Below, piece after piece: positions 27,001 through 33,000 of a stretch of DNA of 64,000 nt. Within the stretch, counting starts at the first letter, position 1; the number at the start of each line of letters is the position of its first letter. Made by a program: the position numbers. Location of the stretch: assembly GCA_031404815.1 (NCBI GenBank), contig JANNIH010000072.1:12100-76099 (forward strand), read 5' to 3'. The stretch is from Holophagales bacterium (GTDB taxonomy: Bacteria; Acidobacteriota; Thermoanaerobaculia; Multivoradales; UBA5704).

Positions 27001-30000
27001 CTGGAAGAGCAGGGCCTGGCCGCGATCGAGCGGATCGAAACCGCGAACCGGGCGCTCACCGAACTCCGGGAGAGCTTCCGCGAGATCGACGCGCAATACG
27101 CCGCCGAAGCCGCGAAGTGGGAGCGCGAGAAGCCCGGCATCGCGCGCGAAGCCAACGCGATCCGCAAGAAGCTCGTCGAGCTGCGCGCCCAGCTGCCCAA
27201 GGGGGTGCTCGCGCTGTTCGAACGGATCCGCGAGCGTTACGCGGGCGCGGGCATCACCGAGGTGCTCAAGTTCGAGCGGATCGGCAGCAGCCAATACGAA
27301 TGGCACTGCAGCGCCTGCAACTTCCGGGTCCGCCCGCAAGTCGTGGTCGAGATCCGCACCCAAGGAACGCTCGTCCAGTGCGACAGCTGCAAGCGGATTC
27401 TGGTCGTCGAGCCCAGCGCTTCCTGAGGACCAGGTGATCGACCCCGAGCCGGAGTCGGGGCTTCGCGAGTCGATCGCCTCGGTCGAGGAGCGGATCGTCT
27501 CGGCCTGCCACCGCGTCGGCCGTGACCGAGCGTCGGTCACGCTGGTCGCGGTGACCAAGACCCATCCGCCCGAGACGTTGCGGGCGGCGTGGGATCTGGG
27601 GCTCCGTCTGTTCGGCGAGAATCGCGTCCAGGAAGCGGCGACCAAAGTGCCGCTGCTGCCGGCCGAAACCGAATGGCACCTGATCGGGCCGCTCCAGTCG
27701 AACAAGGTGCGGCAAGCGCCCGACCTCTTCCGGACCATCCACTCGATCGACCGAGAAAAGATCGCCCACGCGCTCGACGCCGAAGCCGCCCGCCGCGGCA
27801 TCGTGATCGACGGCTTCCTCGAAGTGAACTCCGGCAACGAGGTGACCAAGCACGGCTTTCCCCCCGAAAGCTTCCTCGCCGCCGCCCCGGAATTCCTACG
27901 CCTCAAAAACCTCCGCATCCGCGGCCTGATGGCGATCCCCCCCTTCGGCCGCGCCGCCGAAGAATCCCGCCCCTACTTCCGCCGCCTCCGCGACCTCCGC
28001 GACCAGCTCGCCACCCACCCCGACGCCACCCACTTTTCCGGCTGGCTCTCGATGGGCATGAGCGACGATTACGAGGTCGCAATCGAAGAGGGGGCGACGC
28101 ACGTGCGGATCGGGACGGCGATTTTTGGGCGGCGGTAGGGAGAGTCGGATGGGTGCATGCCTGCGCGCCCCGCGAGGGTTTGAGATCGCGGGGTTGATGA
28201 CGCGCGCCCGGCCACCCCGCGAGGGTTTGAAAACCCTCGCTAGATTACGTCGTCCCTACGGGACGAGATGCTGGCTTCGTCGAGGAGGCGAGAGGATGGG
28301 GTGCATGCCGACTGGCAATGTGCGGCTTTCTTTTCCCCTAGGGAACGTCCCGCCAGGGACGTCGTTACGTAGCGAGCGGTTTCAACCGCTCGCGGGGCCG
28401 CGAGATTCGAAAAAGTCAATAGCCATGCTAACATGCGCGCCCCTTTAGGGCTCTTGCGCCCTCTGGAGAGCGCCATGGCGATGCCCCCTTTGACCCCGCT
28501 GGATGTGCAGCGGATGAAGTTTGCGACCAAGATGCGCGGGTACGACGCCCGGGAGGTCGAGGACTTTCTGGCTCTGGTCGCCGAGGAGTTGGCGCAGCGG
28601 ATCGGCCAGGTCGATAAGCTGGAGCGCGAGGCGAAGTACTACCGCCAGCGGGTCGAGGAGGCCGAGGAGCGCGAGCACCAGTTGCAGCAGACGCTGCTGC
28701 GCGCGCAGAAGGTGGCCGACGAGATCACCGCCAACGCCCGCCGCGAAGCGGAGCTGATGGTGCGCGAAGCGGAGAACGTGGCCGATCGCGTGGTTCATCA
28801 GGCGGTCGAGCAGACCACCCGGATCGAGGCCCGCGTTCACGAGCTGCGCACCATGAGAAAAGAGCTGCAGCACAAATTCCGCAACACGATCGATCTGTTC
28901 CAGCGCATCCTCGAAGCCGAGATGGAAGAGGAGCGCGTCCCCAGCGGCGGCACCGTGATCCAACTGCCGCGCAAAAAGCGCGAGGCTTAAAGCGCGCGAT
29001 GTCCGGGCCGAGCCCGGCGGGCGACCTGCGTGAGATCCCGGCGCCGCTTGCCGAGCGGCTGTTCCCTGATTTCGCGCGCGAGGACCTGACGCTCGACTCT
29101 TTTCCCAACGGCGCCCGCTCGCTCGTGCTCGCCCGCCTGCTCGAAGACGGCGACCGCAACGACCTCGCCTGGTTGTTCGGCGCCCTGCCGGAAGGGGAGA
29201 TCGCAGCCTGGCTTGGCGAGCACGGCGGGCGCAAGCTGTCGCGCCGGAGCGCCGCGTACTGGCAGACCGTGCTGGGAATCCCTGCGGGGGCGCCCGCCGC
29301 GGGGCGCGCGGATCTCTGGCCGCTGTGAGATCCTCGCTCCCTGCCATGACCTCCACCACCGCTCTAGCCCGACTCCTCGCCCTCGATTTCCGGGAGTCTT
29401 TGGCCCGCCCAAGCGCCGCGCTCATCGCCCGTTTCGGCGCGGCGGAGTGGGGGGCTGACTTCTACCTCGCCGGGTCGGCGGCGCTCGCGCTCTACCTCGG
29501 CCATCGGCCGGTGCGCGACCTCGACCTGATGAGCAACGCGAACCGCCTGACGCCCCCGGATCGGCGCGACCTGCTCGGCGCGCTGCTCGACATCGAGCCC
29601 GGCACCGAGGTCGAGACGGCGCGCGACGGCTACCTGTTCGTCCGCATGCCGGGGGCGGTTCCGGAAGCTGGCGGGGTCGGCGTCCGCTTCTTCTACTACC
29701 CCTATCCGCTCGCCGATCCGTTCGAGGAGATCGACGGTCTGTCGGTCGCCTCCGCCGTCGATCTCGGACTCATGAAGCTCGGCGCGATCATCAGCCGCGG
29801 CACCCGGCGCGATTTCATCGACCTCTATCTCCTCTGCCGCCGGCTGCCGCTTGAAGAGCTGCTCGCGCGCGCCGAAGACAAATTCGGCCACGTGCGCGAC
29901 TTTCCGCTCCAGGCGCAGAAAGGTCTCGCCGATTTCTCCGCGGCAGAGGACGAGCCGATGCCGAAGCTCGCGCAGCCGTTGGCGTGGGACGAGGTCGAGA

Positions 30001-33000
30001 GCTGGTTTGCCGAACAGGTGCGCACCCTCGGTCGCGAGCACGCCGGGCTGCCGATGGGAGAACCGTGATGAGCGGCGACCTGCTGATCGAAAACCTCGCC
30101 GAAGTGGCGACTTCCGAAGGGTCCACTCCGCGGCGGGGTGCGGAGCAGGGCCGCGTGCGCCGCACCCGAGGATCGGAAGGGGCGGAAGGGGTCGAAGTGC
30201 TCTGCCAGGCCGGCCGAATCGTGTTCGTGGGGTCGGAAGGTGAGCGCCGCACCCTCTTTGGCGACCTCCCCGAGACGCCCCGTCTCGACGGCAAGCGCGG
30301 TACGTTGATCCCCGGCTTCGTCGATCCGCACACCCACATCCCTTGGGCCGGCACGCGCGAGACCGAGCTGTTCGAGCGCTTGGGCGGCAAGACCTACCAG
30401 GCGATCGCGGCCGAAGGGGGCGGCATCCTTTCCACCGTCGCCGCCACCCGCCATGCGTCGGAAGACGAAATCACCGGCAACGTCCTGCGCCATCTCGACT
30501 GGATGCTCGCGGGGGGCACCACCACGATCGAAGCGAAGAGCGGCTACGGGCTCAATCTAGCGGATGAGGTGAAGCAGCTGGTGGCGCTTGAGCGCGCGGC
30601 GGCCGAGCACCCGGTGCGGATTTTGCCCACCCTGCTGGCCGCCCACGAGGTGCCGGCGGAGCATCGCGCCGACCCTCGGGGGCGCGCCCGTTACGTCGAT
30701 TTGATCTGCGACGAGATCGTGCCGGCGGTGGCGGCCCGCGGGCTCGCCCGGTTCTGCGATGTCTTCTGCGAGGCGGGAGTGTTTTCGGCCGCAGAATCCC
30801 GACGGGTGCTCGAAGCGGGAATTCGCCACGGGCTCGCGCCCCGCCTTCATGCCGACGAGTTCGCCGATTCGGGCGGGGCGGAGCTCGCGGCCGAGCTGGG
30901 CGCGCTTTCGGCCGATCACCTGATGGCGGTCTCCGAGCGCGGAATCGAGGCGCTCGCGGGGAGCGGAGTCACCGCGGTCCTGCTGCCCGGCACCAGCTTT
31001 TTCTTGAGAAAAGAGCGCTACGCGCCGGCCCGCCGCATGATCGAATCGGGCATTCCGGTGGCGCTCGCCACCGACTGCAATCCCGGATCGTCCTACACCG
31101 AATCGATGCCGATGATCGTGACCCTTGCGGTGTTCCAGCTCGGCCTGTCGGTCGAGGAGAGCCTGACCGCGGCGACGCTCAATGCCGCCTGTAGCCTCGG
31201 GGTGGGCGACGAGGTCGGCACGATCGAGGTGGGCAAGCGCGCCGATCTCGCACTGGTCGATGCGCCGAACCTGCTCCATCTCGCCTACCACTACGGCGTG
31301 AACCCGATCGCGGCGGTCGTCCGCGACGGCCGCTTGGCCTATCGGGCCGGCGGCCGCGTCGTCTAATCCCTCCCCTGCCCGTCAAGCCACCCAGGCCGAT
31401 AGCCTGGGCTAAGTGAAACGGCCCTTCAGGCCGTAAAAATCCGCGGGCGAGGACGTTCTCGGCTGCTAGGATAGCCCCGCATGGGCGCCCTCCCTTTCGA
31501 CTCCCGTTCGCTCTATCTGCTGCTGATCGCGCTGGTCGCGGTGCAGCGGCTCGCCGAGCTTCTGCTCTCGAAGCGCAACCTGGCGCGGTCGCTCGCGGCG
31601 GGCGGACGAGAGGTCGGTTCCGGGCATTATCCGGTCATGGTGGCCCTTCACACCGCGTTCCTGATCGCCTGCCCGGTCGAGGTCTACGGGCTCGATCGGC
31701 CGTTCGTTCCGACCCTGGCGATCGGGTGCGGAGTCCTTCTCGCGCTCGCCACGGCTTTGCGTTATTGGGCGATCGGCACGCTTGGGGCTCGGTGGAATAC
31801 GCGGATCGTCGTCTTGGCCGGCGCGGCGCCGGTGGTCGGCGGGCCGTTTCGGTTCTTGCGCCACCCGAACTACCTGGCCGTGATTCTGGAGATCGCGGTG
31901 CTGCCTCTGTTGCATAGCGCCTGGGTGACCGCGATCGTCTTCTCGGTCGCGAACGCCGCCCTGTTGCGGGTGCGCATCGCCGCGGAAGAAAAAGCGCTCT
32001 CGGAGGTCTCGGGTTACGAGCGCGCCTTCGCCGACAAACCCCGTTTGATTCCTTCCGGATCGGAGGCCTCGTCCCGATGAATGTTCTGTCTGCCGAGGCG
32101 GTCTTGTTTGGCGTCACCGAGATCGCGCAGCGCCACTTGGGCTGGGAGGGTCCGCTCGCCCTCGACATGCGCCTGGTCGAGGACTTGGCGCTCGATTCGG
32201 TGCGGCTGCTCACTCTCGCGGCCGAGGTCGAGAACCGGTTTCGCGTCCTGCTCGACGAGCGGGATGAGGCGGCGCTCGAAACCGTCGCCAATCTGGTCGA
32301 ACTCGTGCGCCGAAAGCTCGAAGCGTGACCGGGAGCCCGCCGGCCGGCCCCTCGGCCGATACGCCTCCGGGGACCCTGCTCGATCTGCTGGCTCGTGCGG
32401 ACCATGCCTCGCAAGGGGGCATCCGCTTGATCGCCCGCGACGAGAGCGCCACCTGGCACGGGTGGGGCGACGTGCGCGCGCGAGCCGAATCGGTGGCGGG
32501 AAACCTCGCCGCGGCGGGCGTCATGCCGGGGGATCGCATCGCATTGGTCTACCCAACCGGGATCGATTTCTTCGCCGCGCTGTTCGGCGTCCTGATCGCG
32601 GGCGGGGTGCCGGTGCCGCTCTATCCGCCGGTGCGCCTCGGCCGGCTCGACGAATACTTCCGCCGCACCGCCCGCATGCTCGAACTGGTGCGCGCCCGCT
32701 TGGTGCTCGCCGATGCGCGTGTCCAGCGCATCCTGGGCGAGGCGATCGCAATCGCCCAGCCGCCGCTCGGCTGCAAGACGCTCGATCAGTTGCCGAACGG
32801 TGCGGCGGTACCCGCGGTTTCGGGTGCGGCTCGGCCGGACGATCTCGCCCTGGTGCAGTACTCCTCGGGCACCACGGTCGATCCGAAACCGGTCGCCCTG
32901 TCGCACCGCGCGATCATCGCCCAGATCGACGCCCTCAATCACTTCTGGAGCGACACGCCGGAACACAGGCACAGCTGCGTCTCCTGGCTGCCGCTCTACC

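What the first reader, a model, noticed from the sequence alone, without database searches (positions are those of the whole stretch)
28999..30068. AbiEii-like nucleotidyltransferase with a small overlapping partner, wedged between divIVA and hutI
A two-gene unit with ATGA-coupled genes. The downstream 247-aa protein carries a GS-AL...R..DLD nucleotidyltransferase motif like AbiEii/DUF1814 abortive-infection toxins. The 109-aa partner has no recognised fold, where AbiEi antitoxins are usually larger wHTH proteins. This is possibly a variant type IV TA or abortive-infection pair with a novel antitoxin.
Basis: partly seen in the sequence, partly recalled or inferred. Interest (0 to 1): 0.5.

Follow-up and report, generated by a model that had tools for sequence, protein, structure and literature searches.

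The report
Chromosomally fixed AbiEii-type nucleotidyltransferase gene pair
A toxin-like nucleotidyltransferase and its small partner, a gene type that normally moves between genomes, were inserted long ago between a cell-division gene and a histidine-breakdown gene and have since been inherited like ordinary core genes across the class Thermoanaerobaculia.

Summary
Both genes are real. The 247-aa protein is a true AbiEii/DUF1814 nucleotidyltransferase: Pfam PF08843 at 40.3 bits against a cut-off of 22.5, a fold matching JHP933, MenT4 and MenT1, and all four catalytic motifs conserved. The 109-aa partner is not an orphan. It is a divergent DUF6922 (PF21956), an uncharacterised helical domain. 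Elsewhere this domain also sits directly upstream of AbiEii genes, sometimes fused to an N-terminal HTH, as in typical antitoxins.

The context is the surprise. In 80 species genomes spanning at least two orders of Thermoanaerobaculia, the pair keeps one position: tRNA-Met, CT398-like, yggS, divIVA, partner, NTase, hutI. Stops and starts mostly overlap. GC3, dN/dS (0.14-0.38) and divergence match the housekeeping neighbours. Neither protein matches any plasmid or phage record. Sister lineages have divIVA overlapping hutI with no pair, so this was one ancient insertion. At least one in-clade contig (L104) has since replaced the pair.

The Ser/Thr that antitoxins use to shut off AbiEii, MenT1 and MenT3 is Val here, but Ser in four DUF6922-paired relatives outside the clade.

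Verdict: a domesticated variant of a known toxin-antitoxin kind, not a mobile abortive-infection system. Its function is inferred, not shown.

The parts
28999..29328 (+). 109-aa partner, a divergent stand-alone DUF6922 domain and candidate regulator or antitoxin of the NTase
29325..30068 (+). AbiEii/DUF1814-family nucleotidyltransferase: 247 aa from GTG 29325, or 240 aa from ATG 29346
   Evidence: PF08843 scores 40.3 bits against a cut-off of 22.5. The AF2 model has pLDDT 85.3 and pTM 0.83. Foldseek top hits are JHP933 (4ok0, 4o8s), MenT4 (6y56) and MenT1 (8an4, 8an5), at E 2e-6 to 5e-4. Identity to orthologs in 80 species genomes is 60-88%.
29472..29477 (+). Motif I, hG[G/S]: G50-S51
   Evidence: G50 is present in 86 of 86 orthologs and S51 in 84 of 86. 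The motif definition is from PMC3985639.
29505..29525 (+). Motif II, R61-P-V63-R-D65-L-D67: the catalytic DhD with the family-specific Arg. V63 occupies the position of the phosphoacceptor Ser/Thr of AbiEii, MenT3 and MenT1
   Evidence: R61 is 86/86, D65 is 82 D and 4 E, D67 is 86/86, and V63 is 84 V, 1 L and 1 I with no Ser or Thr. AbiEii has R63-x-T65-x-D67-x-D69 and MenT3 has R76-x-S78-K79-D80. Four DUF6922-paired NTases outside the clade have Ser at this position.
29775..29798 (+). Motif III, K151-L-G-A-I-I-S-R158 (KLxAxxxR)
   Evidence: K151, A154 and R158 are each present in 86 of 86 orthologs.
29808..29822 (+). Motif IV, R162-D163-F-I-D166 (+DxxD)
   Evidence: D163 and D166 are each 86/86. 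R162 is 85 R and 1 K.
28433..28990 (+). divIVA, the upstream gene of the same tightly packed unit. The likely true start is about 28475-28481 (MAMPPLTPLDV)
   Evidence: PF05103 scores 104 bits. Its stop lies 8 nt before the partner's ATG. In 48 of 76 related loci the two genes overlap by 4 nt.
30068..31366 (+). hutI (imidazolonepropionase), whose start overlaps the NTase stop (TGATG)
   Evidence: TIGR01224 scores 441 bits against a cut-off of 298. There is a 4-nt overlap with the NTase gene in 29 of 74 related loci. No + strand terminator-like site lies between the divIVA start and the hutI start; the one + strand site in the unit is inside hutI at 30763-30779.

Best explanation
This is a toxin-antitoxin-type two-gene module: a DUF6922 partner plus a DUF1814/AbiEii/MenT-family nucleotidyltransferase. 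It was inserted once, long ago, between the translationally coupled divIVA and hutI genes of an ancestor within Thermoanaerobaculia. Since then it has been kept by host-level selection as part of that operon. Shown here: the family and fold of the NTase; intact and essentially invariant catalytic motifs; the DUF6922 identity of the partner; the ancient insertion, vertical inheritance and purifying selection; the lack of room for a promoter of its own; and Val at the phosphoacceptor position. Inferred: the NTase is an active NTP transferase that, like MenT1, MenT3 and AbiEii, most likely extends RNA (tRNA) 3' ends and so slows translation. Also inferred: the DUF6922 protein is its cognate inhibitor, made in fixed ratio with it by translational coupling. 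Because the Ser/Thr at D-2 is Val, inhibition cannot work by antitoxin-induced auto-phosphorylation at that site (the type VII route). It would have to work by direct binding. The module would then act as a built-in, host-controlled brake on growth, co-expressed with divIVA and hutI, rather than as a mobile phage-defence cassette.
For: NTase identity. Motif conservation in 86 orthologs: using the definitions read. Partner is DUF6922. DUF6922 sits directly upstream of, or overlapping, AbiEii genes in unrelated contexts (L088, L092). It also occurs as HTH_17-DUF6922 fusions, which have the typical antitoxin layout of a DNA-binding domain plus a neutralising domain (L094, L095). DUF6922 is found without an NTase (L091, L093). 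No locus shows the NTase without the partner, apart from L068, which is cut at the contig end. Fixed synteny holds in 80 species genomes, including Ca. Multivoradales. Overlapping junctions. dN/dS, GC3 and median dN are like the neighbours'. Empty sites with divIVA directly overlapping hutI occur in sister lineages. Neither protein matches plasmids or phages. No promoter-like site or inverted repeat was found, and the gap after divIVA is only 8 nt. Phosphoacceptor position: Val in the clade against Ser in four relatives outside it, with the literature register taken.
Against: No activity, toxicity, binding or substrate has been measured. The tRNA target is pure analogy with proteins of about 16-21% identity. 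The phosphoacceptor register rests on motif matching (R-x-[S/T]-x-D-h-D), not on a structural superposition. Position 64 (D-1) is Thr or Ser in 28 of 86 orthologs and could in principle substitute. A few orthologs have lost the first Asp of the DhD motif: L090 has Asn, P0107 has Ser and four have Glu. Catalysis may therefore not be needed in every lineage. One in-clade contig (L104) has replaced the pair, so it is not essential. Fixed synteny alone does not exclude a defensive role.
Confidence: 0.5

Rival explanations
1. This is a conventional abortive-infection or selfish toxin-antitoxin cassette. The NTase is a toxin released on phage attack or antitoxin loss, and the stable location is incidental.
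For: The NTase belongs to the AbiEii family with intact toxin motifs. The layout is two overlapping genes with the small gene first. The pair is demonstrably an insertion. It can be lost or replaced (L104). The yggS-divIVA gap next door takes up defence genes in L001.
Against: The position is the same in 80 species of a class, and its divergence, dN/dS and GC3 equal those of housekeeping neighbours. There are no plasmid or phage relatives. There is no room for an autoregulated promoter and no inverted repeats. The partner lacks the HTH found in some relatives. PADLOC gives only weak AbiEii hits and no AbiEi hit. A purely selfish toxin fixed in a chromosome would be expected to decay, yet its catalytic residues are 95-100% conserved.
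Confidence: 0.2
2. This is a housekeeping enzyme with an accessory subunit and no toxin-antitoxin relationship. The NTase performs a routine nucleotidyl transfer, for example RNA 3'-end maintenance or modification of a protein or small molecule. DUF6922 acts as its adaptor or activator.
For: Conservation is core-gene-like and the genes sit inside an operon. The regulatory phosphoacceptor is lost. The literature states that DUF1814 members are not always linked to antitoxins. In L094 the related pair sits 3 nt upstream of a tRNA pseudouridine synthase gene.
Against: The HTH-DUF6922 fusions and the DUF6922 genes found without an NTase fit an antitoxin better than an obligate subunit. The pair is absent from sister lineages that share the same operon, and it is replaceable within the clade. 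It is therefore not a universal necessity. All characterised family members are growth inhibitors.
Confidence: 0.2
3. The NTase is a catalytically dead scaffold, kept for a structural or binding role.
For: The first catalytic Asp is replaced in a few orthologs: Asn in L090, Ser in P0107 and Glu in four. In AbiEii the D67E change abolished toxicity.
Against: G50, R61, D67, E97, K151, R158, D163 and D166 are invariant in 86 of 86 orthologs, and D65 is Asp in 82 of 86. That pattern is what selection on catalysis would produce.
Confidence: 0.05

Closest known systems
AbiE (AbiEi/AbiEii) of Streptococcus agalactiae and Lactococcus lactis. [quoted passage not shown]
   Same: The NTase is a DUF1814/PF08843 member with motifs I-IV, including the family-specific Arg of motif II. 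The smaller partner gene lies directly upstream and the genes are tightly packed.
   Different: The partner is a 109-aa DUF6922 helical protein, not a COG5340 wHTH-plus-CTD protein. There is no autoregulated promoter with inverted repeats. The position equivalent to AbiEii T65 is Val. The pair is not on mobile elements and is fixed in a core operon. Sequence similarity to AbiEii HMMs is low (PADLOC E about 1e-3).
MenAT systems of Mycobacterium tuberculosis: MenT1, MenT3 and MenT4 toxins with unrelated MenA antitoxins
   Same: The predicted NTase fold matches MenT4 (6y56) and MenT1 (8an4, 8an5). These systems are chromosomal. They show that DUF1814 toxins pair with structurally unrelated antitoxins. 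MenT toxins add nucleotides to tRNA acceptor ends, which is the source of the mechanism inferred here.
   Different: There is no sequence-level similarity. DUF6922 matches no solved antitoxin structure. The MenT1 T39 and MenT3 S78 phosphoacceptor is not conserved. This pair is conserved across a whole class in one locus, whereas the MenAT systems were characterised in a single species, M. tuberculosis.
JHP933 of Helicobacter pylori, a DUF1814 nucleotidyltransferase of unknown function
   Same: It is the best structural match to the NTase model: 4ok0 and 4o8s, E 2e-6 to 3e-6, TM about 0.55.
   Different: Identity is only 18-19%. Whether JHP933 has a DUF6922 partner was not tested.
DUF6922 (PF21956) plus AbiEii pairs in other bacteria, for example the Chloroflexi MAG in L092 and the metagenome contigs L088, L094 and L095
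   Same: They have the same two families, order and overlap. They are the direct relatives of this module: NTase 32-40% identical and partner 29-34% identical.
   Different: Those NTases keep Ser at the phosphoacceptor position. Some of their partners carry an N-terminal HTH_17 domain. Their genomic contexts differ. None has been studied: full-text searches for DUF6922 and PF21956 found no paper.
SanaTA and RlegTA, DUF1814 toxin systems with short antitoxins
   Same: The toxin is a DUF1814 member and the upstream antitoxin is comparatively short (SanaA is 136 aa).
   Different: According to the 2026 preprint, SanaA and RlegA are structurally AbiEi-like and SanaT and RlegT keep Ser/Thr at the phosphoacceptor position. 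Neither point holds here.

Membership tests
AbiEii / DUF1814 nucleotidyltransferase (Pfam PF08843) | The protein scores above the Pfam gathering threshold | tested here: met
   It scores 40.3 bits against a cut-off of 22.5, E 4.6e-10, covering profile positions 3-211 of 238. All listed orthologs carry PF08843.
AbiEii / DUF1814 nucleotidyltransferase (Pfam PF08843) | Four conserved motifs are present: I hG[G/S], II R...DhD, III KLxAxxxR, IV +DxxD | tested here: met
   The motifs are G50-S51, R61...D65-L-D67, K151...R158 and R162-D163..D166. They are invariant or nearly so in 86 orthologs. Definitions are from PMC3985639.
AbiEii / DUF1814 nucleotidyltransferase (Pfam PF08843) | The protein has a pol-beta-like NTase fold with the DUF1814 C-terminal helical domain | tested here: met
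   The AF2 model (pLDDT 85.3) matches JHP933, MenT4, MenT1 and 5uvd at Foldseek probability 1.00.
AbiEii / DUF1814 nucleotidyltransferase (Pfam PF08843) | The protein shows NTP binding or transfer and growth inhibition | not testable with these tools
   This needs expression and biochemistry.
AbiE system (AbiEi + AbiEii; type IV, reclassified type VII) | [quoted passage not shown] | tested here: not met
AbiE system (AbiEi + AbiEii; type IV, reclassified type VII) | The operon has its own promoter with inverted repeats that the antitoxin binds | tested here: not met
   Only 8 nt separate the divIVA stop from the partner's ATG. No sigma-70-like site was found, and the only inverted repeat is one 12-nt palindrome inside divIVA. 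In 48 of 76 loci the partner overlaps divIVA by 4 nt.
AbiE system (AbiEi + AbiEii; type IV, reclassified type VII) | A Ser/Thr phosphoacceptor lies two residues before the first catalytic Asp (AbiEii T65, MenT3 S78) | tested here: not met
   Position 63 is Val in 84, Leu in 1 and Ile in 1 of 86 orthologs. The register comes from motif matching with the literature, not from a structural superposition.
AbiE system (AbiEi + AbiEii; type IV, reclassified type VII) | The system confers phage resistance by abortive infection | not testable with these tools
The context argues against a mobile defence element.
DUF6922 (Pfam PF21956) | The protein matches the PF21956 profile | tested here: inconclusive
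   The window copy gives no hit even at E<=10. However, 12 of 17 close homologs hit (best E 8.3e-7) and 29 of 84 wider homologs hit (best E 2e-12). A profile of the clade also retrieves PF21956-labelled proteins at E 1e-15 to 1e-22. Homology to the family is therefore clear, but the window copy is below the model's reach.
DUF6922 (Pfam PF21956) | The gene is genomically paired with an AbiEii-family gene | tested here: met
   This holds in the window, in 79 of 80 GTDB loci, and in L088, L089, L090, L092, L094 and L095. The exceptions without an NTase are L091 and L093.
Toxin-antitoxin module (generic) | Two small adjacent co-transcribed genes are present, and the antitoxin can occur alone but the toxin does not | tested here: met
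   The genes overlap by 13 nt in 54 and by 4 nt in 14 of 85 loci. DUF6922 occurs alone in L091 and L093. No complete locus has the NTase alone. The sample is small.
Toxin-antitoxin module (generic) | The toxin is toxic and the partner neutralises it | not testable with these tools
   This requires co-expression assays.
Toxin-antitoxin module (generic) | The module shows patchy, horizontally mobile distribution | tested here: not met
   The locus is the same in 80 species and its composition and evolutionary rate are like its neighbours'. Neither protein matches plasmids or phages.

The most novel reading that the evidence does not exclude
A toxin-derived DUF1814 nucleotidyltransferase has been recruited as a core, host-controlled regulator in a whole bacterial class. 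It is expressed in fixed ratio with DivIVA and its DUF6922 partner. It has lost the phospho-switch used by its toxin relatives. It would modify RNA 3' ends, or another target, to tie translation capacity to cell division or nutrient state. This would be a clear case of long-term domestication of a toxin-antitoxin toxin into housekeeping physiology, with DUF6922 as a new class of NTase regulator.
Probability: 0.3. Interest if true: 0.7.

Novelty: new variant of a known kind. Interest (0 to 1): 0.5.

Why it matters
Chromosomal toxin-antitoxin modules are usually patchy, fast-turnover elements, and their benefit to the host is still debated. This DUF1814 toxin-type enzyme has kept every catalytic motif under purifying selection. 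It has stayed in one operon position through the divergence of at least two orders, and it has lost the residue by which related toxins are switched off. That makes it a good natural test case for two questions: whether such toxins become useful host enzymes, and how. It also gives DUF6922, a domain with no literature, a concrete and testable role as the cognate partner of AbiEii-family NTases, with or without a DNA-binding domain. For annotation, it warns that an 'AbiEii/AbiGii toxin family protein' label in Thermoanaerobaculia does not indicate a defence island.

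Tried and rejected
- **PDB sequence searches.** Profiles of the NTase (A2, A8) and of the partner (A1) gave only chance hits. No residue-level alignment to MenT or AbiEii could be obtained that way.
- **afdb50 fold library.** It was not available.
- **Plasmids and phages.** tblastn of both proteins found no match.
- **NCBIfam.** It has no model for either protein.
- **Literature.** Searches for DUF6922 and PF21956 found no paper.
- **Acido-Lenti-1 RNA.** The hit upstream of divIVA was considered as an operon leader, but it is marginal (40 bits against 37) and absent from 13 related loci. I dropped it from the model.
- **Replacement ORFs.** The small ORFs that replace the pair in L104, and the ORF upstream of hutI in L099, match no Pfam family.
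- **Domain fusions.** The 'DivIVA-DUF6922' (P0216) and 'YggS-DUF6922' (P0285) proteins have low-complexity, out-of-frame-looking middles. I read them as frameshifted gene calls across neighbouring genes.
- **CT398-like gene.** Its dN/dS values were computed out of frame and must be ignored.
- **Start choice.** Picking the start codon nearest the upstream stop biases the distances towards small values. The recurring -4 and -13 classes are still informative.

Full report
**1. Observation**

The window holds two + strand ORFs at 28999..29328 (109 aa, ATG) and 29325..30068 (247 aa from GTG).

- The partner's stop TGA (29326-29328) overlaps GTG 29325, so the junction reads GTGA, not ATGA.
- The first ATG of the second gene is at 29346, where the 94%-identical homolog P0035 begins.
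- The stop of the second gene (30066-30068) overlaps the ATG of the next gene (TGATG).
- Upstream is DivIVA (PF05103, 104 bits). Its stop lies 8 nt before the partner's ATG.
- Downstream is HutI (TIGR01224, 441 bits against a cut-off of 298).

The best homologs of both proteins (84-94% identity) come from Thermoanaerobaculia (Acidobacteriota) MAGs.

**2. The 247-aa protein**

It passes the Pfam AbiEii/DUF1814 model: PF08843, 40.3 bits against 22.5. PADLOC AbiEii models give only weak hits.

An AlphaFold2 model built on 24 orthologs has pLDDT 85.3 and pTM 0.83. Its best matches among solved structures are the DUF1814 NTases JHP933 (4ok0, 4o8s), MenT4 (6y56), MenT1 (8an4, 8an5) and 5uvd (Foldseek E 2e-6 to 5e-4).

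The four DUF1814 motifs defined by Dy et al. (PMC3985639) are all present:

| Motif | Residues in the window protein |
|---|---|
| I | G50-S51 |
| II | R61-P-V-R-D65-L-D67 |
| III | K151...R158 |
| IV | R162-D163-F-I-D166 |

Across 86 orthologs, G50, R61, D67, E97, K151, R158, D163 and D166 are invariant. D65 is Asp in 82 and Glu in 4.

**3. The 109-aa protein**

The window copy hits nothing in Pfam, NCBIfam or PADLOC. Its relatives do.

- 12 of 17 close homologs and 29 of 84 wider homologs hit PF21956 (DUF6922), with a best E of 2e-12.
- A profile search of 1.84 billion representatives finds 827 clusters at E<=1e-3, mostly 90-105 aa.
- A profile search of the annotated collection grades smoothly into PF21956-labelled proteins from Chloroflexi and Anaerolineae MAGs.
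- Conserved blocks are RLLEDGD..DL.WL, G.R.LSRRS.A.W and a C-terminal LWPL.
- No paper in the library mentions DUF6922 or PF21956.

**4. DUF6922 is a general partner of AbiEii-family NTases**

| Locus | Arrangement |
|---|---|
| L088 / L089 | DUF6922 gene overlaps a downstream AbiEii gene; hisS nearby |
| L092 (Chloroflexi MAG) | Same pairing, after tlyA-uppS |
| L090 | Same pairing |
| L094, L095 | HTH_17-DUF6922 fusions (P0275, P0292) directly upstream of and overlapping AbiEii genes |
| L091, L093 | DUF6922 without an NTase |

The HTH_17-DUF6922 fusions have the usual antitoxin layout of a DNA-binding domain plus a neutralising domain. Further fusions of this kind (P0283, P0296, P0299) were found, but their contexts were not looked up. 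No complete locus has the NTase without DUF6922. Together these points support, but do not prove, an antitoxin-like role for DUF6922.

**5. Context: the main result**

A scan of one genome per GTDB species found 126 species with an ortholog, and the best 80 loci were kept. All are Thermoanaerobaculia or so-labelled Acidobacteriota or 'Holophagales' MAGs, including Ca. Multivoradales.

- tblastn of the window's neighbours shows one order almost everywhere: CT398-like Zn-ribbon, YggS, DivIVA, partner, NTase, HutI. A tRNA precedes it in the 12 of 13 loci checked.
- The partner is directly upstream of the NTase in 79 of 80 loci. The exception, L068, is cut at the contig end.
- Six deep-branching loci lack DivIVA between YggS and the partner.
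- About ten loci lack HutI immediately downstream.

Gene junctions are mostly overlaps. The start-choice rule used there favours short distances.

| Junction | Commonest arrangement |
|---|---|
| DivIVA to partner | -4 nt in 48 of 76 loci |
| Partner to NTase | -13 nt in 54 and -4 nt in 14 of 85 loci |
| NTase to HutI | -4 nt in 29 of 74 loci |

No promoter-like site, + strand terminator-like site or relevant inverted repeat lies between the divIVA start and the hutI start. The one + strand terminator-like site in the unit is inside hutI (30763-30779).

Composition and evolutionary rates match the neighbouring genes. GC3 is 0.843-0.877 for all five genes.

| Gene | GC3 | dN/dS to close orthologs | Median dN to the window, all loci |
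|---|---|---|---|
| Partner | 0.873 | 0.15-0.38 | 0.384 |
| NTase | 0.855 | 0.135-0.20 | 0.229 |
| YggS | 0.877 | 0.14-0.24 | 0.333 |
| DivIVA | 0.872 | 0.05-0.14 | 0.254 |
| HutI | 0.843 | 0.08-0.14 | 0.195 |

Neither protein has a tblastn match in 72,556 plasmid records or 50,697 phage records.

**6. Origin**

A metagenome scan with HutI gave two groups.

- Ten contigs with HutI >=67% identical carry the pair.
- More distant contigs (HutI 51-57% identical) have the same CT398-YggS-DivIVA block but no pair. In L109, L111, L126 and L144 DivIVA is followed directly by HutI. L112, L113, L116, L117 and L120 are similar, with DivIVA about 90 nt upstream of HutI.

In L109 the DivIVA stop and a HutI start overlap by 4 nt. 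The pair was therefore inserted between two already coupled genes and took over the coupling.

In one in-clade contig, L104 (HutI 74% identical), unrelated small ORFs lie between DivIVA and HutI. L099 (HutI 75%) has unrelated DNA in the 860 nt upstream of HutI, but it is a short contig that does not reach DivIVA. The pair can therefore be lost.

**7. A clade-specific change in the regulatory site**

In AbiEii, MenT3 and MenT1 the antitoxin induces auto-phosphorylation of an active-site Ser/Thr. These residues are AbiEii T65 within R63-x-T65-x-D67, MenT3 S78 within R76-x-S78-K79-D80, and MenT1 T39 (PMC11375011; bioRxiv 10.64898/2026.01.19.700257; PMC7450476).

- By motif register the equivalent window residue is V63. 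It is Val in 84, Leu in 1 and Ile in 1 of 86 orthologs.
- All four DUF6922-paired NTases outside the clade (L088, L092, L094, L095) have Ser there, within HR[RFQ]S[IVL]D[LF]DFF.
- Caveats: the register comes from motif matching, not a superposition. The neighbouring position 64 is Thr or Ser in 28 of 86 orthologs.

**8. Interpretation**

The ancestral module was probably an [HTH-]DUF6922 antitoxin plus a DUF1814 toxin with a phospho-switch. In Thermoanaerobaculia it became fixed inside the divIVA-hutI operon without an HTH, without its own promoter and without the phosphoacceptor. All catalytic residues stayed under purifying selection.

A purely selfish chromosomal toxin would be expected to decay over such a time span, so host-level selection on NTase activity is the simplest reading. 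By analogy with MenT and AbiEii, the most likely activity is nucleotide addition to tRNA or RNA 3' ends, with DUF6922 inhibiting by direct binding. None of this biochemistry is shown here.

The rivals are a conventional defence or addiction toxin-antitoxin module, a non-toxic enzyme with an accessory subunit, and a dead scaffold. They are weighed in the structured fields.

**9. Verdict**

The NTase call is right. The partner is a divergent member of an uncharacterised Pfam family that also pairs with AbiEii elsewhere. The mobile abortive-infection reading is not supported by the context.

This is a new, domesticated-looking variant of a known kind of system. It is of moderate interest, chiefly as a test case for toxin domestication and as a handle on DUF6922.

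Noticed in passing
window 28220-28265 (+): An Rfam Acido-Lenti-1 RNA (RF01687) hit at 40 bits, against a gathering score of 37, lies in the roughly 300-nt gap between yggS and divIVA. It was not found at gathering threshold in 13 related loci, so it is marginal and may be a chance hit.
   Followed up: partly
window 26565-26638 (+): tRNA-Met (CAT) lies just upstream of the CT398-like Zn-ribbon gene and is syntenic in 12 of 13 related loci checked. The mechanically called GTG start of that ORF (26629) overlaps the tRNA, so the real start must be further in.
   Followed up: partly
L109 4486-5001; also L111, L126, L144: In sister lineages that lack the pair, divIVA and hutI are directly adjacent and overlap by 4 nt in L109. 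A cell-division gene translationally coupled to a histidine-catabolism gene is an unexplained linkage that predates the insertion.
   Followed up: partly
L001 1716-5153; also L006, L007, L010 between yggS and divIVA: The yggS-divIVA gap is variable. L001 carries Patatin, TIR-TPR and SLATT genes there, which look like a defence island. L006 and L007 have about 2.2 kb of extra DNA there and L010 about 1.3 kb. The window has only about 300 nt.
   Followed up: no
L104 934-1671: In this in-clade contig the DUF6922-NTase pair is replaced by two unrelated small ORFs (130 aa on the + strand, 84 aa on the - strand). Neither matches a Pfam family. This may be another small cassette at the same site.
   Followed up: partly
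L094 580-2539: An HTH_17-DUF6922 fusion gene, an overlapping AbiEii gene and then a tRNA pseudouridine synthase (PseudoU_synth_1) gene only 3 nt downstream. This may hint at a tRNA-related role, but it is a single example.
   Followed up: no
window 31481-34130 and beyond: Downstream of hutI lie an ICMT-family methyltransferase, a small acyl-carrier protein and a 601-aa ORF (32325-34130) whose L003 counterpart carries an AMP-binding domain. In L003 these are followed by an FAD-binding enzyme and a radical-SAM protein. This looks like a lipid or secondary-metabolite cluster, conserved only among the closest relatives.
   Followed up: no
P0216 (269 aa), P0285 (239 aa): These database proteins look like DivIVA-DUF6922 and YggS-DUF6922 fusions. 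Their middles are low-complexity and look out of frame, so they are probably frameshifted gene calls spanning neighbouring genes, not real fusions.
   Followed up: partly
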